From Escherichia coli (GTDB taxonomy: Bacteria > Pseudomonadota > Gammaproteobacteria > Enterobacterales > Enterobacteriaceae), in NCBI RefSeq assembly GCF_041886205.1, contig NZ_CP169029.1: DNA of 64,000 nt; one strand, given 5' to 3'. Below the pieces are notes generated by a model. That model was not told the origin of the DNA and made no database searches. It worked only from the letters and a program-made list of their open reading frames with translations. A program made the translations under genes and the position numbers. Positions 39,299 through 53,121 of this stretch are shown here, in pieces (the stretch's first letter is position 1; each line of letters begins with the position of its first letter).

Positions 39299-41470
39299 AT
39301 GAGTCAAACCATAACCCAGGGCCGTTTACGCATTGACGCCAATTTTAAACGTTTTGTGGATGAAGAAGTTTTACCGGGAACAGGGCTGGACGCTGCGGCG
39401 TTCTGGCGCAATTTTGATGAGATCGTTCACGATCTGGCACCAGAAAATCGTCAGTTGCTGGCAGAACGCGATCGCATTCAGGCGGCGCTTGATGAGTGGC
39501 ATCGCAGCAATCCGGGGCCGGTAAAAGATAAAGCGGCCTATAAATCTTTCCTGCGTGAACTGGGCTACCTGGTGCCGCAACCGGAGCGCGTGACGGTGGA
39601 AACCACGGGCATTGACAGCGAAATCACCAGTCAGGCGGGGCCACAGCTGGTGGTTCCGGCAATGAACGCCCGCTACGCGCTGAACGCGGCGAACGCTCGC
39701 TGGGGCTCACTGTACGATGCGTTATACGGCAGCGACATCATCCCGCAGGAAGGGGCGGTGGTCAGCGGCTACGATCCGCAACGCGGTGAGCAGGTTATCG
39801 CCTGGGTTCGGCGTTTCCTCGATGAATCTCTACCGCTGGAAAACGGCAGCTATCAGGATGTGGTGGCGTTTAAGGTGGTCGATAAACAATTACGCATCCA
39901 GTTGAAAAATGGTAAAGAAACCACGTTACGTACCCCGGCGCAGTTTGTCGGTTACCGTGGCGATGCCGCTGCGCTGACCTGCATTTTGCTGAAAAATAAC
40001 GGCCTGCATATTGAACTGCAAATTGATGCCAACGGGCGGATTGGCAAAGACGATCCGGCGCACATCAACGATGTTATCGTCGAAGCGGCCATCAGTACCA
40101 TTCTCGACTGCGAAGATTCGGTCGCGGCGGTTGATGCGGAAGATAAAATCCTGCTGTACCGCAATCTGCTGGGCCTGATGCAGGGGACTCTGCAAGAGAA
40201 AATGGAGAAAAACGGTCGACAAATCGTGCGTAAACTGAATGACGATCGTCATTACACCGCCGCCGATGGCTCTGAAATTTCTCTGCACGGACGCTCGCTG
40301 CTGTTTATCCGCAACGTGGGTCATTTGATGACCATTCCTGTGATTTGGGACAGCGAAGGCAATGAAATCCCGGAAGGCATTCTTGATGGCGTCATGACTG
40401 GCGCGATTGCCCTCTATGATTTAAAAGTGCAGAAAAACTCGCGCACTGGCAGCGTCTATATTGTGAAACCGAAAATGCACGGTCCGCAGGAAGTGGCGTT
40501 CGCCAACAAACTGTTTACCCGCATTGAGACAATGCTCGGTATGGCACCGAATACCCTGAAAATGGGCATTATGGATGAAGAACGTCGGACCTCGCTGAAC
40601 TTGCGTAGCTGTATCGCTCAGGCGCGCAACCGCGTGGCGTTCATCAATACCGGTTTCCTCGACCGTACCGGCGATGAAATGCATTCGGTGATGGAAGCTG
40701 GCCCGATGCTGCGTAAAAATCAGATGAAATCGACGCCGTGGATCAAAGCCTACGAGCGTAATAACGTGCTTTCCGGCCTGTTCTGTGGGCTGCGCGGTAA
40801 AGCGCAAATCGGTAAAGGCATGTGGGCAATGCCGGACCTGATGGCAGACATGTACAGCCAGAAGGGCGACCAACTGCGTGCCGGGGCAAACACAGCCTGG
40901 GTTCCGTCACCAACCGCTGCTACGCTCCATGCGCTGCACTACCACCAAACCAACGTACAGAGCGTGCAAGCCAACATTGCCCAGACCGAGTTTAATGCTG
41001 AATTTGAACCGCTGCTGGACGATCTGCTGACTATTCCGGTTGCTGAAAACGCTAACTGGTCGGCGCAAGAGATCCAACAAGAGCTGGATAACAACGTGCA
41101 GGGGATTCTGGGGTACGTGGTGCGCTGGGTGGAGCAGGGGATTGGTTGTTCAAAAGTGCCGGATATTCACAATGTGGCGCTGATGGAAGACCGCGCAACG
41201 CTGCGTATCTCCAGCCAGCATATCGCCAACTGGTTACGTCACGGTATTCTGACCAAAGAACAGGTGCAGGCGTCGCTGGAGAATATGGCGAAAGTGGTTG
41301 ATCAGCAAAACGCTGGCGATCCGGCTTACCGTCCGATGGCGGGGAATTTCGCTAACTCGTGTGCTTTTAAAGCTGCCAGCGATTTGATCTTCCTCGGCGT
41401 GAAACAGCCAAACGGTTATACCGAACCGTTATTACACGCCTGGCGTTTACGCGAAAAAGAAAGTCATTAA
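39299..41470 (+). CDS. glcB: Malate synthase G (723 aa)
   Basis: [36 protein letters not shown]... recognised as GlcB. Confidence 0.97.
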
Positions 41471-45421: not shown

Positions 45422-46171
45422 ATGACGGGCTTTTTTGACAGGCTGATTAACCGGAGCGTTACCGCAAATGCAGGCTGTGAACCAGAACCATCGGATGAGG
45501 AGGTTACCGATGAGTCGGTTGAAGAAAGTTTGGCCAGTAGTGAAACGCGGACGCTAAAAAAAATACGTGAAGCGACTCAGGAATTGCTCAAATACGGCCT
45601 GCTGGAAGAGGCCAGTAAGCCCAATCTGTACCGCATCGTACTGAGCCATCCTGAAGAGGTTACTCGTATTCTGGAGCCTCTCGATCTGGATATCGGCATT
45701 GATGAGATCCGTGGCCTGCTGTATGTCAAAGTCAGGCTTGATGAAACGCCTGCGCAGGATGAATGGGCCCACCCTCTGGTGAGGCGGCAACGACTAAACC
45801 TGGAACAATCTTTATTAGTTGCCATACTGCGCCAACATTTTGTGGCCTGGGAGCAGGAAAGCGGAACCGGTGCCAGTCAGGCACAGATCGCCATCGATGA
45901 TCTTCTCCCTCAACTCCAGATTTATCTTGGCGACCCGGGCAGTGAATCAAAAGAACGCACCCGATTGCTTACCCTGCTGGATCAATTAAAGGGGCATGGG
46001 CTGGTGACGTCGCCGGATGCACATGAGCGGATCGTCATCCGTCCGATCATTGCTCATCTTGCCGATCCGATCAATCTTCAGGCATTACTGGCATGGCTGC
46101 GAGAGCAAATTGCCCAGCAAACCTCTCCAAATGACGCGCGAGAAAAGGATAGCAGCGAGGAGGACGTATGA
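45422..46171 (+). CDS. jetB: Wadjet JetB (DUF4194-like, MksE/KITE-like subunit, 249 aa)
   Basis: Sits in ORF 45407..46171. ATG at 45422, 8 nt after a GGAG. Acidic N- and C-terminal tails (EPEPSDEEVTDESVEESL, DSSEEDV). Ends in an ATGA overlap with jetC. Confidence 0.8.
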   Translation: MTGFFDRLINRSVTANAGCEPEPSDEEVTDESVEESLASSETRTLKKIREATQELLKYGLLEEASKPNLYRIVLSHPEEVTRILEPLDLDIGIDEIRGLLYVKVRLDETPAQDEWAHPLVRRQRLNLEQSLLVAILRQHFVAWEQESGTGASQAQIAIDDLLPQLQIYLGDPGSESKERTRLLTLLDQLKGHGLVTSPDAHERIVIRPIIAHLADPINLQALLAWLREQIAQQTSPNDAREKDSSEEDV

Positions 46172-49100
46172 ATCAGGTATCTGGCCTGGCTGGAAAGGAA
46201 TCTTTCATTCTTACCCGTATTGAGTTGTTCAACTGGGGCGGTTTTCATGGATTGCATCAGGCAGCAATCCATCAGGATGGTACCGCCGTTATTGGCCCAA
46301 CCGGGAGCGGAAAAACAACGTTGGTCGATGCCCTGATGACTCTGCTTTGTGCCAATCCTCGCTACAATCTGGCCTCAACTGGCGGGCATGAAAGCGACAG
46401 GGATCTTATCTCTTACGTCCGCGGCGTATCCGGTCCTGGCGATGGCGGTGAAGGGCAATCGCATATTGCCAGACCAGGTAAAACCGTGACAGGTATTGCT
46501 GCTACGCTGGAGCGCGAAGGAAAACAGGTCCGTCTGGGGGCGTTATTGTGGTTTGATTCCACCAGTTCCAGCGTGACGGATATGAAAAGGCTCTGGCTGT
46601 TCAGCGATAATCCCGGGCAGACGCTGGAGCATTGGCTAAACGTTTACCATGAGGGAGGTACACGTTTGCTCCGACAGATGGAAAAAGAAGCCATCGGGCT
46701 CTGGACATACCCGAATAAAAAGCAGTATCTGGCGCGCCTGCGGGATTTCTTCGAGGTGGGGGAAAACGCGTTTACGTTGTTAAACCGGGCGGCAGGGTTA
46801 AAACAACTCAACAGTATTGATGAGATTTTTCGCGAGCTGGTGTTAGACGATCACTCCGCCTTTGATCGCGCGGCTGAAGTGGCCAATAGTTTTGATGGTC
46901 TGACTGAGATTCATCAGGAACTGGAAACCGCTCGCAAACAACAGCAGTCTTTACAACCTGTCGCCCTGAGCTGGGAGAAGTACCAAAAGCAAGAGCGTCA
47001 ACTGGCTGACTGGCAGACGCTGGAATCGCTGTTACCCCTCTGGTTTGCACAACAGGCAAACCACCTCTGGCGGGAAAAGATTAACCTTCTTAACGCAAGG
47101 CTCGCTGAGGCACAAACCAGCGAAGAACAGCTCCAGTCACAGCTTGATTTGCAAAAAAAGGTGGTTAGCGACTGTATGCAGCGTTATCTCCAGGTCGGCG
47201 GTGCCAATATTGATGAACTGAACGAGCGTATCAAGGACTGGCAAAAAACGCTCGGCAGTCGAGAGGCATTGGCGCGTCAATATCAACAGCTGACCCGTAA
47301 CCTTGGATTGCCGTCTGATCTGATCCAACCACAGCTGGAGGCGAATCAGCATGAAGCCGCGGCCCTATGTGAGCAGATCGCCGTTGATATAAAGTTGAAA
47401 CAGGAAGAAGCGTATCAAAAAGGTGCGCTTAGCCATCACATTACCGAAGAGCTTCGGGAACGGGAAAATGAACGCGCCGAGATCGCGCGTCGTCCGGATT
47501 CTAACCTTCCCGCACATTATCAGGCGTTTCGTAGCGAGCTGGCAAAAGCGTTGAACGTGGATGAGTCTGAACTGCCTTTCGTCGCTGAACTGATACAGGT
47601 TAAACCGGAAGAGGCGCAATGGCGCGGTGCGATTGAGCGTGCTGTCGGGAGTAACAGGCTGCGTATTCTGGTTGCGCCTGAATCGGCACAGGAAGCGCTG
47701 CGCTGGGTAAATCAGCGCAACAACCGTCTGCATGTGCGGCTACTGGAGGTCAAATTACCGCACTCTCCCGCCCGGTTCTTCGACGATGGCTTTACCCGCA
47801 AGCTGTTGTGGAAAGATCATCCGTGGCGAGAGGCCGTCAAAGCATTACTGGCCGAAAGCGACAGGCATTGTGTTGACAGCCCTGAACAACTGCGTGACAC
47901 GCCTCATGCTATGACGGTGCAGGGATTAATGTCTGGTAAACAGCGTTTTTATGACAAGCATGATCAGAAACGCCTTGATGAAGACTGGCTGACGGGATTC
48001 GATAACCGCGATCGCCTGAACTTCCTTGCTAAAGAAATTACCACGCTTCAGGAGCAGGTTAAAACCGCAAACGCGGCATTTGAGTTTGCGAAAGGCGAGG
48101 TGGGGATTTTGCAAAATCAGGCTGCTTCCTTCCAGAAAATAGAACAAATTGATTTCGATAGCATCGATGTTCCCGGCGCGAAGAGCCAACTGGACGCGCT
48201 CAGGGAGCGGCTGGAAAATCTGACCCGCCCGGATTCTGACGCCAGTGTAGCGAAAGCAAAACTTGATGAGGCTCAAACGGTTGAATCTGAACTCGATAAG
48301 CAGCTCAGAGCTGCCAATAAAGTCACTAACGTGCTGGATACAGAACTCACATCAGCCCGTGCCGCGGAACGTAAGGCCCAGCAAACTGCACAACAAGGTA
48401 TGAAGGAAGAAGAGCGAGAGTTGTGCGCGTCACATTTTCCAGTGGTGACTTTGGAGCAATTGCCTGACATTCGCGATTTAGAACGTCAACATGAGCGGGG
48501 AATTCAGCATGAAATTGAAAGAGTTAAAGCTGAACTACATCGACTGAACATTGAGTTGACCAAACGTATGTCTGAAGCCAAACGTGTGGATACCGGGGCG
48601 CTCGTTGAGGCAGGGACTGATTTGGACGATATTACTGTTTATTTACAGCGTTTGCAGGAACTGACCGAAGAAGCCCTGCCGGAAAAGCTCAATCGCTTCC
48701 TTGATTATCTTAACCGTTCATCCGATGACGGCGTAACACAACTGCTTAGCCATATTGAGCATGAGGTGCTGGTGATTGAGGAGCGCCTCAATGAACTCAA
48801 TGAAACTATGTTCAGGGTTGATTTTCAGCCGTATCGCTACCTGCGTCTGGATACCAAAAAAGTTGTCCATGAAAGCCTGCGCACGCTTGAAAAAGCACAG
48901 CGTCAGCTAAATGCCGCCCGATTTGTTGATGATAATGGCGAGAGCCATTATAAGGCTTTGCAGATACTGGTGGCGCAATTGCGGGATGCTTGTGAACGAA
49001 ACCGTACCCTGGGAGCAAAAGCGCTACTGGATCCCCGTTTTCGACTGGAGTTCGCCGTATCGGTGATGGATCGTCAGAGCGGAAATGTGATTGAGTCTCG

Positions 49101-49455
49101 TACCGGCTCACAGGGTGGTAGCGGTGGAGAAAAAGAGATTATCGCTTCTTACGTGTTAACAGCTTCACTTAGCTACGCACTTTGTCCTGCGGGGAGCCGT
49201 TATCCGCTTTTCGGTACCATTATCCTTGATGAAGCCTTCTCCCGCAGTTCTCATGCGGTGGCGGGTAGGATCATTGCCGCGCTTAGAGAATTTGGCTTAC
49301 ATGCAGTATTTATCACCCCCAATAAGGAAATGCGCCTGCTGCGTGACCATACTCGTTCGGCGATTGTTGTCCACCGGCGCGGTCAGAATTCCAATATGGC
49401 TTCTCTGAGCTGGGAAGAGCTTGAACGACACTACCAGCGACGGGGGAACGCGTAG
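46168..49455 (+). CDS. jetC: Wadjet JetC (SMC/MukB-like ABC ATPase, 1095 aa)
   Basis: Walker A GPTGSGKTT (nt 46294-46320). About 800 aa of E/Q/L/R-rich coiled coil. C-terminal signature-like GGSGGEKE and Walker B TIILDEAF. Confidence 0.88.
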   Translation: MNQVSGLAGKESFILTRIELFNWGGFHGLHQAAIHQDGTAVIGPTGSGKTTLVDALMTLLCANPRYNLASTGGHESDRDLISYVRGVSGPGDGGEGQSHIARPGKTVTGIAATLEREGKQVRLGALLWFDSTSSSVTDMKRLWLFSDNPGQTLEHWLNVYHEGGTRLLRQMEKEAIGLWTYPNKKQYLARLRDFFEVGENAFTLLNRAAGLKQLNSIDEIFRELVLDDHSAFDRAAEVANSFDGLTEIHQELETARKQQQSLQPVALSWEKYQKQERQLADWQTLESLLPLWFAQQANHLWREKINLLNARLAEAQTSEEQLQSQLDLQKKVVSDCMQRYLQVGGANIDELNERIKDWQKTLGSREALARQYQQLTRNLGLPSDLIQPQLEANQHEAAALCEQIAVDIKLKQEEAYQKGALSHHITEELRERENERAEIARRPDSNLPAHYQAFRSELAKALNVDESELPFVAELIQVKPEEAQWRGAIERAVGSNRLRILVAPESAQEALRWVNQRNNRLHVRLLEVKLPHSPARFFDDGFTRKLLWKDHPWREAVKALLAESDRHCVDSPEQLRDTPHAMTVQGLMSGKQRFYDKHDQKRLDEDWLTGFDNRDRLNFLAKEITTLQEQVKTANAAFEFAKGEVGILQNQAASFQKIEQIDFDSIDVPGAKSQLDALRERLENLTRPDSDASVAKAKLDEAQTVESELDKQLRAANKVTNVLDTELTSARAAERKAQQTAQQGMKEEERELCASHFPVVTLEQLPDIRDLERQHERGIQHEIERVKAELHRLNIELTKRMSEAKRVDTGALVEAGTDLDDITVYLQRLQELTEEALPEKLNRFLDYLNRSSDDGVTQLLSHIEHEVLVIEERLNELNETMFRVDFQPYRYLRLDTKKVVHESLRTLEKAQRQLNAARFVDDNGESHYKALQILVAQLRDACERNRTLGAKALLDPRFRLEFAVSVMDRQSGNVIESRTGSQGGSGGEKEIIASYVLTASLSYALCPAGSRYPLFGTIILDEAFSRSSHAVAGRIIAALREFGLHAVFITPNKEMRLLRDHTRSAIVVHRRGQNSNMASLSWEELERHYQRRGNA

Positions 49456-49456
49456 G

Positions 49457-50605
49457 ATGTATTCCCCAGATGAATTGCGTGAAAAGCTTGCCCGGCAGTG
49501 GGATAGCGCAAAACTTCGGGCTGAACGCTTACTGTCCCCCGGTAACTGGCCGCTCTGCCTGCCTATTGGTAAACCTTCCACGAAAATATTTGCAGAGCAG
49601 ACTCAGCGCGTTTTGCAGCACGTACAGCGATGGAGGCAAGTTGCGGTTGGGCACGTGGAATGGGAAGCGGTGAGTTATCGGGCAAGTGATACATCAGTAT
49701 TAATGCCGTTGCGCTGGATTCTGAATAGCCCTTCTGAGTGGATCAACGCCGCTGCGGATCCGGTTGTGAGCCGGGAATTTCGCTTGCTGGAAGGAATTAT
49801 TGAACAAGTTAATCCCATTTTTCACCCGCTGTTGGTAAAGCATCGCTCTCTCTGGCGGCACAAAGATCCGCAGGGCGTCATCAGCGCCGCCACGCTGGCC
49901 TGCCGATTAGAGCCGGGCTGCGCAAAAGGGCTGCCGTTAAGATTGCTTTCCGGGCAAGGAGTGGATACCAAATTTATCGAGAATAATATTTCGTTATTAA
50001 CCCGACTGTTAGACGTGCGGTTTTCAGGAGAAGCCAGCGAGCAGGGATTAACAACTTTTCTTGATGCTTTTGATGAGTCCAGTCACTGGGTTTTAGTTGT
50101 ACCATTATCACCCGGCTTACTTCCTTTTAAAAAATGCCGGGTAACAACGGCGGAACTGGCAGAAACAACATTACCTGCGTCGCAAGTACTGGTGGTTGAA
50201 AATGAGCAGTGTCTGCATCATCTTCCAGCATTATCTGACACTATCGCGATTTTAGGCTGTGGCCTGGACGTGCAATGGCTATCCAGTTCTGTTCTGGATG
50301 AAAAACGCGTTGCTTATTGGGGGGACATGGATAGCTGGGGATTACTGATGCTGGCGAGAGCCAGGCGCTGTCGTCCGACGCTTGATGCCCTGCTCATGAA
50401 CCGTGAGTTGTTTGAGCAGTATGCCAGTCATAGCGCCGTTCCAGAACCGGTCATAGCGAAGGAAGCTGTACCTGATGGCTTGCTTAACGAAGAGGCCGAT
50501 TTTTATCGCTACTTAACCCGTTTACCGTGTGGTCGTCTGGAGCAGGAGTTTTTGCCAGTGGGGATTGCGGAAGAGGTGCTTCTCAGGTGGGGAAAAGAGA
50601 GTTAA
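49457..50605 (+). CDS. jetD: Wadjet JetD (DUF3322/DUF2220-like Toprim nuclease subunit, 382 aa)
   Basis: Sits in ORF 49421..50605. ATG at 49457, 1 nt after the jetC TAG. C-terminal Toprim signature: VVENEQ (around nt 50197) and YWGDMDSWG (DxD, around nt 50331-50351). Confidence 0.85.
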   Translation: MYSPDELREKLARQWDSAKLRAERLLSPGNWPLCLPIGKPSTKIFAEQTQRVLQHVQRWRQVAVGHVEWEAVSYRASDTSVLMPLRWILNSPSEWINAAADPVVSREFRLLEGIIEQVNPIFHPLLVKHRSLWRHKDPQGVISAATLACRLEPGCAKGLPLRLLSGQGVDTKFIENNISLLTRLLDVRFSGEASEQGLTTFLDAFDESSHWVLVVPLSPGLLPFKKCRVTTAELAETTLPASQVLVVENEQCLHHLPALSDTIAILGCGLDVQWLSSSVLDEKRVAYWGDMDSWGLLMLARARRCRPTLDALLMNRELFEQYASHSAVPEPVIAKEAVPDGLLNEEADFYRYLTRLPCGRLEQEFLPVGIAEEVLLRWGKES

Positions 50606-50985: not shown

Positions 50986-51382
50986 GAATGCTTCTATCAT
51001 GTTGATATTATTTTATTTTGTTTGGTTTGGTGAAATATGTACCCTCTTTTGTACCCGCAGTCCCTTTTGATATCGAAAGGGAATCAAACTCGGGGTCAGG
51101 CTGAGAGCACAGAAGGAAAGTGCCTGGCTATTATATCGTTAATTCTGTCAATCAGCTCCAGCCTTTTGAAAGTGATGTGTGCAGATCCACCCTTCTTAAA
51201 GTATTTAATGATGAACATCTCATCTTCATAGCGTCCTTTACCCTGAACGGACTGTATGTGGTCATCCAGATTAATGGTGATATTCCCTCGGTTGTCGGGG
51301 ATCGGTTTACCGCTGAGCAGATGCAACATTCTTTCCAGGTCAGCCAGGCGATCTGCCTGCATTCCACTGATAAGATGAAATC

Positions 51383-52736
51383 TATGGTCACCCCCGTTTT
51401 TGCAACACTGATTTTTGATTAATGGTTGGCTTGCTTAAATCTATCCGGCGTCTCTGTGGGCAAGGATGCCCGCGCCCCGATGAGTTCCGCACCTGATAAT
51501 CCTAAAAATCCCCTCGGCTTCAGTGAGCCATTTCATCTGTTAGGTTTTTAATCAGGTCGATTTGCCGTTCATGTCATCAATAATCAGTCTTCGCAAAACC
51601 AGAAAGGTAACTTGTATCTTATTGTTTAAAATAAACTAATTGAGTTATATCAGCATCTATATCAGGCCTGATATTCTTTTTTCTGAGTAGTGATTGCCCA
51701 GGCAATTCGAGCCAGTTTATTTGCCAGAGCGCAGGTAACCACATTCGAATGCTTCTTGTTGAGTTGCTCCCGAACCCACTCAGCAAGTTTTCCATGCTTG
51801 CGTTCAAGTCGCATTATGAATGAGCGGGCACACTGAACCAGTAACCGGCGTAAATTTTTATCACCTCGCTTACTGATACCCAACAGAGTCGATTTTCCTC
51901 CAGTGCTATACTGCCGGGGAACAAGTCCTGTGGAAGCTGCAAAATCCCTGCTGCATGAGAACTGTTTCCCGTCACCAAGTTGCGACGATAGTAAGCTGGC
52001 AGTAATCGGACCAACACCAGGAATTGTCATAATGCGCTGAGCGGTATCATCAGCGTTGATTGACTGACTTAATTCTGATTCCAGCTCTGCTATTTGCTCA
52101 ACAAGGTAAAAGTAGTGGGTATGCAACCTCACCAAAAGGCGGCTCAGATATTCGGGGATTTCGTGTTCAGCCAACACGAGAGACAACCGTTTTATTACAG
52201 CATCACCTATCGGCAGGCTGATTCCAAATTCCAGCAAGAAACCGTGGATCTGGTTGGTTGTTTTCACTTTATCTCTGATGAGCGATTCTCTGACCCGGTG
52301 TAACGCCCTCATGGCCTGCTGGGTCTCAGTTCTTGGCTGGACAAAACGCATTGATGGTCGTGAAGCCGCTTCGCATATGGCTTCTGCATCAACAAAATCA
52401 TTCTTATTACTTTTGACAAACGGGCGAACGAACTGTGGAGAAATCAGCTTAGTTTCATGCCCAAAATCAGAGATACAGCGAGCCATAAAGTGTGCACCCG
52501 CACAGGCTTCCATTACAACAACTGAGGGCGGACATGTCGCCAGAAACTGCATCAGTTTAGTACGGGTAAATTTTTTACGCAGAAGAGCCTTACCAGACTT
52601 GTCTTGACAATGAATGTGGAAGGAGTGCTTTCCGAGATCGATACCAATAAGTGTGATGTTCTGCATGATGGTCTCTCCGTTAAAGGGATTTACCTTAACA
52701 GCGTACTGCTGTTAAGGTGGGGGTGACCATATCATT
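51383..52736 (-). mobile_element. IS110-family insertion sequence (~1.35 kb, IS1111-like layout with a long 3' non-coding end)
   Basis: Perfect 13-bp inverted repeats TATGGTCACCCCC (51383-51395) and GGGGGTGACCATA (52719-52731). ATC sits on both flanks (51380-82 and 52737-39). Single DEDD-type transposase ORF. Confidence 0.85.
51662..52666 (-). CDS. IS110-family DEDD transposase/recombinase (334 aa)
   Basis: N-terminal LIGIDLGKHSFH (RuvC-like DEDD). C-terminal IPGVGPITASLL...GLVPRQYSTGGKSTLLGISKRGDKNLRRLL, typical of IS110/IS1111 transposases. Confidence 0.9.
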   Translation of the reverse strand: MQNITLIGIDLGKHSFHIHCQDKSGKALLRKKFTRTKLMQFLATCPPSVVVMEACAGAHFMARCISDFGHETKLISPQFVRPFVKSNKNDFVDAEAICEAASRPSMRFVQPRTETQQAMRALHRVRESLIRDKVKTTNQIHGFLLEFGISLPIGDAVIKRLSLVLAEHEIPEYLSRLLVRLHTHYFYLVEQIAELESELSQSINADDTAQRIMTIPGVGPITASLLSSQLGDGKQFSCSRDFAASTGLVPRQYSTGGKSTLLGISKRGDKNLRRLLVQCARSFIMRLERKHGKLAEWVREQLNKKHSNVVTCALANKLARIAWAITTQKKEYQA

Positions 52737-53121
52737 ATCCCCACTGGTCCCATCTCACCAGATTGTTGACGATAATTTTACTGCCAAATTTACAGGGTGA
52801 GTTGGTTTTGTAATCCCAGCTCAGCCCTTTGAAGACGTTGATCACTCCCCGTTCAAACACTTCATCTTTGTTCTGGTGCAGTTGTTCAAATGTGCTCAGA
52901 ATGTTCGCTTCGCTGATTTCCGGAAAATTATCATATTCCAGTGACCTGGACCTGACTGAGGTGGAGCAGATAACGTCCGTATTCTCGTTGACCACTTCCG
53001 GACGGGAGACTGTGATTTCAGACATAATCGATATTCCTTTTTGCAGATAAATGAAAACGCCAGCCGTGTTCAGGCTGGCGTCAGTGGAATGAAGTCTGGT
53101 GAGTGAGATGATGAGTGAGAC

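What the first reader, a model, noticed from the sequence alone, without database searches (positions are those of the whole stretch)
51521..51538. The IS 3' non-coding region contains a segment matching its own insertion site: candidate guide of a bridge/seek RNA
**Seen in the sequence**
- Plus-strand 51521-51538 is CAGTGAGCCATTTCATCT.
- Its reverse complement, which is what an RNA made in the transposase direction would carry, is AGAUGAAAUGGCUCACUG.
- The reconstructed target is AGATGAAATCCCCACTG.
- The two share 9 contiguous nt (AGATGAAAT), covering the left flank plus the first two nt of the ATC core. They also share a further 5 nt (CACTG) of the right flank, offset by one nt.
- By a rough estimate, a 9-mer match to a given site within about 280 nt on either strand is expected by chance well under 1% of the time.

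**Established knowledge**
- IS110/IS1111 recombinases are programmed by an element-encoded structured non-coding RNA (bridge RNA or seekRNA).
- The loops of that RNA base-pair with the target and with the element ends. In IS1111-type elements it is encoded downstream of the transposase.

**Inference**
- This segment is the target-recognition guide. If so, the insertion in DUF4942 was RNA-specified.
Basis: partly seen in the sequence, partly recalled or inferred. Interest (0 to 1): 0.62.

Follow-up and report, generated by a model that had tools for sequence, protein, structure and literature searches.

The report
ISSfl8 seekRNA target guide, confirmed
The flagged 9 bases are one of two short guide sequences in a small RNA encoded by the insertion sequence ISSfl8 that match the place where the element sits; this fits the RNA-guided targeting already described for this family in 2024, so it is a correct but ordinary finding.

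Summary
The element is ISSfl8, a 1357-bp IS1111-group member of the IS110 family, lying on the minus strand inside a DUF4942 gene. Its 279-nt non-coding region downstream of the transposase carries AGAUGAAAU (51538-51530). That matches the right half of the insertion site, and 303-bp empty sites at 100% identity confirm the site sequence.

The two guides overlap by 4 nt at the insertion point. They flank a conserved hairpin inside an internal loop, with the top-strand match 5' of the bottom-strand match. This is the published IS1111 seekRNA layout.

In 36 related lineages the scaffold is conserved, while exactly these two blocks vary and track each element's own flanks (0 of 5000 permutations reach the observed match). 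The stems show compensatory changes. A near-identical ISSfl8 copy sits at the same 13-bp site in a DUF4942 paralogue whose flanks are only about 79% identical.

Two corrections apply. The 9-mer alone has about a 5% chance expectation, not well under 1%.

Durrant et al. 2024 already list ISSfl8 as having a predicted bridge RNA in its right end. RNA expression was not testable here.

The parts
51381..52737 (-). ISSfl8, 1357 bp, IS1111 group of the IS110 family. The ends follow the 7-bp-left / 3-bp-right extension convention. The exact boundary is ambiguous within the GAT present at both junctions (52737-52739 and 51380-51382), of which one copy belongs to the target.
   Evidence: 100% identical to copies that RefSeq labels 'IS110-like element ISSfl8 family transposase'. 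Junctions read. The empty site has a single GAT.
51662..52666 (-). Transposase/recombinase gene, 334 aa, intact.
   Evidence: Pfam DEDD_Tnp_IS110 (2.4e-20) and Transposase_20 (6.3e-23). C-terminal motif GLVPRQYSTG at residues 247-256 fits the GL-P----S(t)G motif described in PMC11187229.
52719..52731 (-). Left subterminal inverted repeat, TATGGTCACCCCC in element orientation. It is preceded by the terminal extension TAATGA.
   Evidence: Conserved in relatives.
51383..51395 (-). Right subterminal inverted repeat, GGGGGTGACCATA, followed by the extension GA(T).
51383..51661 (-). 3' non-coding region, 279 nt, between the transposase stop codon and the right end. It encodes the guide RNA.
   Evidence: Folds better than all 200 shuffles, z = -4.4. 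The conserved block 51399-51604 aligns across 45 elements at 81% mean column identity.
51486..51568 (-). Target-binding arm, 83 nt: stems P4 and P5, an internal loop holding both guides, and an apical hairpin. Its size is comparable to the 82-nt 'peak' seekRNA of ISEc11.
   Evidence: The only hit of covariance model R1 in the window (91.3 bits; a training sequence). The model also finds relatives that were not used to build it, at 75-93 bits. Structure.
51530..51538 (-). Top-strand guide (T guide), AGAUGAAAU. It pairs with 5'-ATTTCATCT-3' on the element-sense strand, that is AT of the shared GAT plus right flank TTCATCT.
   Evidence: Exact 9-nt match. Unpaired in the consensus fold. The homologous block covaries with right junctions: mean longest exact match 7.34 against a null of 4.72, 0/5000 permutations.
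51516..51529 (-). Apical hairpin GGCU-CACUGA-AGCC separating the two guides.
   Evidence: Conserved in all relatives whatever their target. Stem pairs 77/90 and 80/87 show compensatory changes.
51506..51513 (-). Bottom-strand guide (B guide), GGGGAUUU. It is identical to the element-sense target strand GGGGATTT (left flank GGGGA, shared T, then TT), so it pairs with the opposite strand. It overlaps the T-guide footprint by 4 nt (ATTT) in the target.
   Evidence: The homologous block covaries with left junctions: 5.50 against a null of 2.97, 0/5000 permutations.
51549..51557 (-). 5' strand of stem P4. It pairs with 51491-51499. The short stem P5 is 51542-51544 pairing with 51501-51503.
   Evidence: 5 of the 8 P4 pairs have compensatory double changes, for example UA<->CG in 19 sequences.
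51491..51499 (-). 3' strand of stem P4.
51447..51476 (-). Second conserved hairpin, GGCGC-GGGC...GCCC...GCGCC.
   Evidence: All 4 inner pairs show compensatory changes.
51437..51444 (-). Unpaired AUAGAUUU within the highly conserved stretch GGAUAGAUUUAAG. It is identical to the element's own right terminus ATAGAT plus TT. Candidate donor-end guide (inferred).
   Evidence: ISEc11 carries AUAUAAA at the corresponding place, which matches its own right terminus CATATAAA.
51593..51600 (-). 5' strand of the outer stem P1 (GGUUUUGC). It pairs with GCAAGCC at 51428-51434 and encloses about 173 nt, a candidate 'long' RNA form.
   Evidence: Nearly invariant, so covariation neither supports nor contradicts it.
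51400..51405 (-). TTGCAA, a -35-like hexamer in the right end. In the excised circle it would lie 17 bp upstream of GATAAT (52734-52739), forming a junction promoter (inferred).
   Evidence: TTGCAAA is nearly invariant: 44 of 45 sequences; L005 has TAGCAAA. No sigma-70-like promoter is found within the integrated element.
51373..51379 (-). Right half of the target as it now flanks the element (TTCATCT in element orientation).
52740..52744 (-). Left half of the target as it now flanks the element (GTGGG, continued by the shared GAT).
52740..53025 (-). 5' part of the interrupted DUF4942 gene.
   Evidence: Pfam PF13708, 1.9e-23.
51096..51379 (-). 3' part of the interrupted DUF4942 gene.
   Evidence: Pfam PF13708, 3.4e-25. 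Joining the two parts with one GAT gives an intact 190-aa ORF.

Best explanation
**What it is**
- Window 51381-52737 (minus strand) is an intact copy of ISSfl8, an IS1111-group insertion sequence.
- The RNA transcribed from its 3' non-coding region folds into a stem-loop arm (51568-51486).
- The internal loop of that arm presents two short guides on either side of a small hairpin.

**How the guides read the site**
- The 3' guide, GGGGAUUU, pairs with the other strand of the left half.
- Together they read the 13-bp site GGGGATTTCATCT, with a 4-nt overlap at the crossover point.

**What follows**
- Bound to the DEDD transposase, this RNA directs insertion of the excised circular element into that site without a target duplication.
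- That is why the element sits at this exact position in DUF4942 genes.
- By analogy with ISEc11, the same loop would also recognise the two half-sites flanking an integrated copy during excision.

**Shown here:** the matches, their placement in a conserved, covarying fold, guide-flank covariation across relatives, and recurrent use of the same site.

**Inferred from published work on ISEc11, ISPa11, ISKpn4 and IS621:** that the RNA is made (probably as the 3' part of the transposase transcript driven by a circle-junction promoter), that it binds the transposase, and that it is required.
For: 1. Exact 9-nt and 8-nt matches to opposite strands of the verified empty site, overlapping at the insertion point.
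2. The published IS1111 rule is met: the RNA is encoded downstream of tnp, the top-strand match is 5' of the bottom-strand match, and the matches overlap in the target (PMC11187229).
3. In 45 related non-coding regions the scaffold is conserved, and the two hypervariable blocks coincide with the two guides.
4. Across 36 lineages each block matches its own flank far better than permuted flanks. T guide: 7.34 against 4.72 (sd 0.20). B guide: 5.50 against 2.97 (sd 0.17). No permutation of 5000 reaches either value (anchored version).
5. The IS5075/IS4321-type members in the set (about 70% aa identity; RefSeq label) have guides matching the Tn21-type inverted-repeat target known for those elements.
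6. Consensus fold: 98% of cells paired against 30-43% when partners are slid, and 96 compensatory cells against 31.8 in shuffles. Both guides fall in unpaired columns.
7. Site specificity: 83 genomes carry this junction, against 84 records with the element at >=99% identity.
8. A copy 1356/1357 identical sits at the same site in a DUF4942 paralogue whose flanks are only about 79% identical.
9. A 60-bp left-end remnant of a 93%-identical variant lies at the same site.
10. ISEc11's experimentally validated seekRNA shows the same stem / CCU-AGG / guide-hairpin-guide layout.
11. Durrant et al. list ISSfl8 with a predicted bridge RNA in its right end.
Against: - There is no direct evidence here that the RNA is expressed, processed or bound by the protein.
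- No promoter-like site lies inside the integrated copy.
- Rfam 15 has no matching family.
- My covariance model of the arm does not detect the ISEc11 seekRNA, so the link to the validated RNA is architectural, not demonstrated sequence homology.
- Guide-flank matches are imperfect in several relatives. L001's T guide matches at 4 of the 9 variable positions scored.
- One sibling element (L002) sits at a site that matches neither of its guides.
- The 9-mer alone has about a 5% chance expectation.
Confidence: 0.9

Rival explanations
1. The 9-nt identity is a chance match in an AT-rich non-coding region and has no role in targeting.
For: A match of 9 nt or more to the 23-bp site on either strand arises in 4.9% of dinucleotide shuffles. 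AGATGAAAT also occurs once elsewhere in the window, at 40722.
Against: A second match on the opposite strand, correctly placed and ordered, has a joint chance of 0.34% before any positional constraint is applied. Both blocks covary with flanks in 36 lineages, 0/5000 permutations.
Confidence: 0.02
2. Target choice is made by the transposase protein (or by DNA-DNA pairing of the element's non-coding DNA with the target), and the conserved 3' region serves other roles such as transposase binding sites or the junction promoter. The RNA is not the specificity determinant.
For: Sequence analysis alone cannot tell an RNA guide from a DNA strand of the same sequence. The right end does carry promoter-like and inverted-repeat elements. 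No RNA data exist for ISSfl8.
Against: The stems flanking the guides keep pairing through compensatory changes, which points to selection on a folded single strand. Elements whose whole sequences are 83-96% identical differ in the guide blocks by 1-3 nt and sit at correspondingly different sites. For ISEc11 the RNA co-purifies with the transposase, works in trans, and reprograms the target (PMC11187229).
Confidence: 0.05
3. The match reflects flank capture: a piece of the target was copied into the element by imprecise excision or recombination, rather than a guide that selects the site.
For: The match includes bases of the shared GAT at the junction. Remnants and rearranged copies of this element exist.
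Against: The matching segments lie about 125-150 nt inside the element, in opposite orientations relative to the two target strands and split around a conserved hairpin. The same arrangement recurs with different sequences in every related lineage, which capture events would not produce.
Confidence: 0.02

Closest known systems
seekRNA of IS1111-family elements (ISEc11, ISPa11, ISKpn4; Siddiquee et al. 2024, PMC11187229)
   Same: - Encoded in the long non-coding region downstream of a DEDD transposase, in an element with subterminal inverted repeats.
- Two short matches, one to each target strand, overlap at the insertion point, with the top-strand match 5' of the bottom-strand match.
- The guides sit in an internal loop around a small hairpin.
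- ISEc11's CAGUAUUUU-hairpin-GUGAAAAUA arm has the same stem / CCU-AGG / loop layout.
- Natural retargeting occurs by changes confined to the guide blocks.
- No target duplication is made.
   Different: - The target is different (GGGGATTTCATCT within DUF4942 genes).
- The RNA sequence is too diverged for my covariance model to link them.
- ISSfl8's RNA has not been shown experimentally.
Bridge RNA of IS621/IS110-group elements (Durrant et al. 2024, PMC11208160; Hiraizumi et al. 2024, PMC11208158)
   Same: - An element-encoded structured RNA whose internal loops pair with both strands of the target around a short core.
- The recombinase family is the same.
- A circular intermediate with a junction promoter is expected.
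- Durrant et al. predicted bridge RNAs in the right end of 93% of IS1111 elements and list ISSfl8 as 'RE'.
   Different: - In IS621 the RNA is encoded in the left end, upstream of the gene, and per PMC11187229 the guide order in IS110-type elements is reversed.
- IS621 has a clearly separate donor-binding loop.
- Here a donor-binding function is only suggested: AUAGAUUU at 51437-51444 equals the right terminus, and a CUCAU may pair with the left end. It could not be tested because the ends are invariant in the family.
[quoted passage not shown]
   Same: - About 70% aa identity to the ISSfl8 transposase.
- The terminal architecture is identical (TAATGAG-ATGGTCAC... / ...GTGACCATAGAT).
- The RNA scaffold can be aligned.
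- Their two guide blocks match the flanks seen at their copies, 8 of the 9 variable T-guide positions for most copies. I recognise those flanks from memory as the Tn21-type inverted repeat.
   Different: The guide sequences, and therefore the target, are different.

Membership tests
IS1111 group of the IS110 family | DEDD (RuvC-like) transposase with PF01548 and PF02371 domains | tested here: met
   PF01548 at 2.4e-20 and PF02371 at 6.3e-23.
IS1111 group of the IS110 family | Subterminal inverted repeats of 11-13 bp, with asymmetric terminal extensions (7 bp left, 3 bp right) | tested here: met
   13-bp TATGGTCACCCCC / GGGGGTGACCATA, with extensions TAATGA(T) on the left and (A)GA on the right.
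IS1111 group of the IS110 family | The long non-coding region lies downstream of tnp | tested here: met
   279 nt downstream against 71-73 nt upstream.
IS1111 group of the IS110 family | Site-specific insertion without target-site duplication | tested here: met
   The empty site has a single GAT and matches at 100% over 303 bp. 83 genomes share the junction. There is an independent insertion in a paralogue.
IS1111 group of the IS110 family | C-terminal GL-P----S(t)G motif | tested here: met
   GLVPRQYSTG at residues 247-256.
seekRNA / bridge RNA | [quoted passage not shown] | tested here: met
   AGAUGAAAU (51538-51530) and GGGGAUUU (51513-51506), with a 4-nt overlap. The rule is taken from PMC11187229.
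seekRNA / bridge RNA | Guides exposed in an internal loop of a conserved stem-loop | tested here: met
   The guides are unpaired in the RNAalifold consensus. Stems P4, P6 and P8 show compensatory changes. 98% of cells are paired against 30-43% when partners are slid.
seekRNA / bridge RNA | Guides covary with targets among related elements (natural reprogramming) | tested here: met
   36 lineages; 0/5000 permutations reach the observed match for either guide.
seekRNA / bridge RNA | The RNA is expressed, co-purifies with the transposase, and is required for circle formation and insertion | not testable with these tools
   No expression data are available. No internal promoter was found. A junction promoter TTGCAA-17-GATAAT is inferred.
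seekRNA / bridge RNA | A separate donor-binding loop that pairs with the element ends (bridge-RNA definition) | tested here: inconclusive
   AUAGAUUU (51437-51444) equals the right terminus plus TT, and ISEc11 has the analogous AUAUAAA. The ends are invariant across the 45 aligned relatives, so covariation cannot be scored. The candidate left-end guide CUCAU is predicted instead to pair with GAUGA.
seekRNA / bridge RNA | Detectable sequence/structure homology to an experimentally validated member | tested here: not met
   Model R1 does not hit the ISEc11 locus at E<=1. Rfam 15 has no matching family. The similarity is in architecture only.

The most novel reading that the evidence does not exclude
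The ISSfl8/IS5075 clade RNA may be a true two-function bridge RNA rather than a target-only seekRNA.
- An almost invariant unpaired segment (AUAGAUUU, 51437-51444) would read the element's own right terminus.
- Mis-pairing through this donor-reading part could explain rare off-target events such as L002. There a sibling element sits at GCATAGAT|ATCAATGAG, a mimic of its own joined ends, and is flanked by an unusual 19-bp duplication.
- If so, natural E. coli genomes would hold a record of an alternative, donor-mimic ('half-match'-like) insertion pathway for IS1111 elements.
Probability: 0.15. Interest if true: 0.45.

Novelty: already known. Interest (0 to 1): 0.25.

Why it matters
- It shows that raw sequence alone can pick out the guide of an RNA-guided recombinase.
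- It gives a concrete guide-target assignment for ISSfl8: 13-bp site GGGGATTTCATCT, guides at 51530-51538 and 51506-51513. I did not find this assignment in the nine papers of the held library that mention ISSfl8.
- The E. coli, Xenorhabdus and Burkholderiales relatives form a natural series in which a few guide substitutions go with new insertion sites. This could inform the design rules and mismatch tolerance of IS1111-type programmable recombinases.
- The mechanism itself was established in 2024, and ISSfl8 was already listed with a predicted right-end bridge RNA. This adds detail, not a new kind of system.

Tried and rejected
- **Rfam 15.** A scan of 51200-52900 at E<=10 gave only a spurious snoRNA hit. 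No curated bridge or seek RNA family matched.
- **Promoter and terminator scan.** No promoter-like site lies in the integrated element. The only 'terminator' is the guide-separating hairpin read on the wrong strand.
- **tRNA scan of the island edge.** Nothing found.
- **Covariance model R1 of the target-binding arm.** It recovered held-out relatives but not the ISEc11 seekRNA, so it cannot serve as a homology bridge to the validated RNA.
- **ISEc11 left end.** My first reading (GTGAAA|CTGG) was a coincidental internal look-alike. The inverted-repeat search moved the true end to L089:1342 and gave the published 1443-bp length.
- **Anchored guide-flank scoring.** Scoring in a fixed register under-counts matches, because the hairpin boundary shifts by 1 nt in the Burkholderiales lineages. 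I replaced it with a longest-exact-match statistic.
Rejected as guide sequence.
- **CUCAU (51479-51483) as a left-end guide.** Not supported. Relatives with left end TAATGGG keep CUCAU, and RNAalifold pairs it with GAUGA.
Full report
**1. The observation**

Plus-strand 51521-51538 reads CAGTGAGCCATTTCATCT, and its reverse complement is AGATGAAATGGCTCACTG. AGATGAAAT occurs on the minus strand at 51530-51538 and on the plus strand at 51373-51381, which is the right junction of the element.

- Removing the element and one copy of the GAT found at both junctions joins the two DUF4942 fragments (Pfam PF13708) into an in-frame 190-aa ORF.
- The 303-bp reconstruction matches uninterrupted DUF4942 genes at 100% identity over its full length. 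573 records match at >=99%.

- A match of 9 nt or more between the 279-nt non-coding region and the 23-bp site, on either strand, appears in 4.9% of dinucleotide shuffles.
- The 9-mer alone is therefore only suggestive.

**2. What the element is**

The 1357-bp insertion is 100% identical to copies that RefSeq labels ISSfl8. Its features are:
- a 334-aa transposase (52666-51662, minus strand) with the DEDD_Tnp_IS110 and Transposase_20 domains and the C-terminal GLVPRQYSTG motif;
- 13-bp subterminal inverted repeats (52719-52731 and 51383-51395) with short asymmetric extensions;
- about 72 nt upstream and 279 nt downstream of the gene that are non-coding.

These are the defining features of the IS1111 group as summarised by Siddiquee et al. 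(PMC11187229). Under the 7-bp/3-bp extension convention the element spans 51381-52737. The boundary is ambiguous within the shared GAT.

**3. A second guide and the anatomy of the RNA**

In element orientation the target is ...CCAGTGGG-GAT-TTCATCT....
- AGAUGAAAU is identical to the bottom strand, so it would pair with the top strand over AT plus TTCATCT.
- A search of the whole element for matches to either target strand found a second match: GGGGATTT at 51513-51506. It is identical to the top strand (GGGGA-T-TT), so it would pair with the bottom strand.

The two footprints overlap by 4 nt (ATTT) and together cover GGGGATTTCATCT. They are separated by the hairpin GGCU-CACUGA-AGCC (51529-51516) and enclosed by the stems CCUAA/UUAGG and CCUGAU/AUCAGG.

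This is the arrangement reported for IS1111 seekRNAs: two matches, one per strand, overlapping in the target, with the top-strand match 5' of the bottom-strand match (PMC11187229).

I located ISEc11 in a Shigella plasmid. Its validated seekRNA region reads CAGUAUUUU-hairpin-GUGAAAAUA against the target GTGAAAATACTG, and it folds into the same stem / CCU-AGG / loop layout.

**4. Comparative test**

E. coli genomes hold siblings 83-96% identical at other sites. A scan of one genome per species returned 80 loci with 66-90% aa identity, from Xenorhabdus, Photorhabdus, Burkholderiales and others.
- All loci with complete ends share the termini T|AATGAG-ATGGTC... and ...GACCATAGAT|T.
- Their 3' regions align at 81% mean column identity.
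- There are two hypervariable blocks, and these coincide with the two guides.

Examples, written as reverse complement of the T guide against the right junction, then B guide against the left junction:

| Locus | rc(T guide) / right junction | B guide / left junction |
|---|---|---|
| L034 | ATTTTCATGCT / ATTTTCATGCT | ACACTT / ACACTT |
| L041 | ATTTTAAAGT / ATTTTAAAGT | GAGTTT / GAGTTT |
| L067 | ATTTGAACT / ATTTGAACT | GCGGACAT / GCGGACAT |

The members at about 70% identity carry guides that match the flanks seen at their copies. Plasmid copies at that identity are labelled IS5075/IS4321 in RefSeq. I recognise those flanks as the Tn21-type inverted repeat, the known target of those elements (Partridge & Hall 2003, cited in PMC11187229).

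Over 36 distinct guide pairs:
- The mean longest exact match of the T block to its own right junction is 7.34, against 4.72 (sd 0.20) when flanks are permuted among lineages.
- For the B block and the left junction the values are 5.50 and 2.97 (sd 0.17).
- None of 5000 permutations reaches either observed value. A register-anchored version gives the same verdict.

**5. Structure**

RNAalifold on 45 sequences leaves both guide blocks unpaired. It predicts the enclosing stems, the apical hairpin, a second hairpin (51476-51447) and an outer stem (51600-51593 with 51434-51428). On that structure:
- 98.0% of cells are standard pairs, against 30-43% when partners are slid by 1-3 columns.
- 96 cells carry compensatory double changes, against 31.8 in column shuffles (0/500).
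- The compensatory changes concentrate in P4, the apical hairpin and the second hairpin.
- P1 and P2 are invariant and so say nothing either way.

A covariance model of the 83-nt arm hits the window once (51486-51568, minus strand). It finds relatives not used in training at 75-93 bits, but it does not reach ISEc11. Rfam 15 has no matching family.

**6. Site specificity of ISSfl8 itself**

- 84 records hold the element at >=99% identity, and 83 genomes hold this exact right junction.
- In E. coli 95_0274 the element is 1356/1357 identical to the window copy, while the surrounding DUF4942 gene is only about 79% identical (246/311 and 222/285). The insertion is at the homologous GTGGGGAT|TTCATCTTATCA. 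This is an independent insertion into a paralogue.
- In strain AH65 a 60-bp left-end remnant of a 93%-identical variant lies at the same position.
- No unoccupied copy of the site exists elsewhere in the window.

**7. Exceptions and limits**

- Matches are imperfect in several lineages. L001's T guide matches at 4 of the 9 variable positions scored.
- Some lineages differ by a one-base register shift in T-runs.
- One sibling (L002, E. coli EC5654) sits at a site that matches neither guide. An element with identical guides in strain C5 (L088) has matching flanks, GCGGGCCT|TTTTCTT.
- Nothing here shows that the RNA is made. No promoter-like site lies inside the integrated copy. Joining the ends would create TTGCAA-17 nt-GATAAT. 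This is consistent with the junction promoter described for ISEc11, and with the RNA being the 3' part of the transposase transcript (PMC11187229).

**8. Relation to what is known, and verdict**

RNA-guided targeting by IS110/IS1111 elements was established in 2024 (PMC11187229; PMC11208160; PMC11208158). Durrant et al. predicted bridge RNAs in the right end of 93% of IS1111 elements, and their supplementary table lists 'ISSfl8 RE IS1111'. RefSeq already names relatives 'IS110 family RNA-guided transposase'.

What this work adds is modest:
- the explicit guide-target assignment for ISSfl8;
- the missed second guide;
- the rejection of the CACTG match;
- a quantified natural retargeting series.

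Whether this clade's RNA also reads the element's own ends remains open. The right terminus is mirrored by AUAGAUUU at 51437-51444, with a parallel in ISEc11.

Noticed in passing
L002:1480-2900 (E. coli EC5654, NZ_CP095086.1); also NZ_AP027162.1: An ISSfl8-like element (about 86% identical) sits at a site that matches neither of its guides. It is flanked by a 19-bp direct duplication, TAAATGAAAGTGCATAGAT. The uninterrupted site exists in 4 genomes and reads GCATAGAT|ATCAATGAG, which resembles the element's own joined ends CCATAGAT|AATGAG. This may be an off-target or donor-mimic insertion. A duplication of this length is atypical for the family.
   Followed up: partly
window 51434-51446 (-): A highly conserved unpaired stretch, GGAUAGAUUUAAG (9 of 13 positions invariant, the rest >=90%), lies 3' of the second hairpin. 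It contains AUAGAUUU, identical to the element's right terminus ATAGAT plus TT. ISEc11 has AUAUAAA at the equivalent place, matching its own right terminus, and AUUACAU 5' of its second hairpin, complementary to its left end ATGTAAT. This suggests a donor-reading function, but it could not be tested because the ends are invariant in this clade.
   Followed up: partly
window 51400-51405 and 52734-52739: Joining the right and left ends would place the near-invariant TTGCAA 17 nt upstream of GATAAT, giving a likely circle-junction promoter. The integrated copy has no promoter-like site by the consensus scan.
   Followed up: partly
window 52732-52737 (-): The ISSfl8 left extension is TAATGAT, whereas most related lineages have TAATGAG (a Burkholderiales subgroup has TAATGGG). 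The change lengthens the inverted repeat to 13 bp. It would remove one pair from any CUCAU:ATGAG interaction.
   Followed up: no
L001, L003-L006, L088 (E. coli relatives, 83-96% identical): This is a natural retargeting series within one species. The T guide is AAAUAAAAU, AGAAAAAAU or AGAGAAAAU and the B guide is GGGGCU, GGGUCU or GGGCCU. The insertion sites differ accordingly: next to a type VI secretion cluster, in an IS3-family end, and in the fabF-pabC spacer. At these left junctions the base before the shared T differs from the GAT at the right junction, so only T (or AT) is common to both junctions.
   Followed up: partly
L090:640-760 (E. coli AH65): A 60-bp left-end remnant of an ISSfl8-like element lies at the same DUF4942 site. 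It is followed by unrelated sequence, so the rest of the element and the gene's 3' part have been deleted.
   Followed up: partly
window 46168-50605 (+): JetC (1095 aa; PADLOC E = 0, 1624 bits) and JetD (394 aa; 5e-193) of a type I Wadjet anti-plasmid defence system end about 500 bp from the 3' end of the interrupted DUF4942 gene.
   Followed up: partly
L089:1395-1410 (ISEc11 in a Shigella dysenteriae plasmid): Inside the ISEc11 left end there is a look-alike of the left half of its own target (GGGTGAAA). It first misled my end assignment and is probably coincidence.
   Followed up: no
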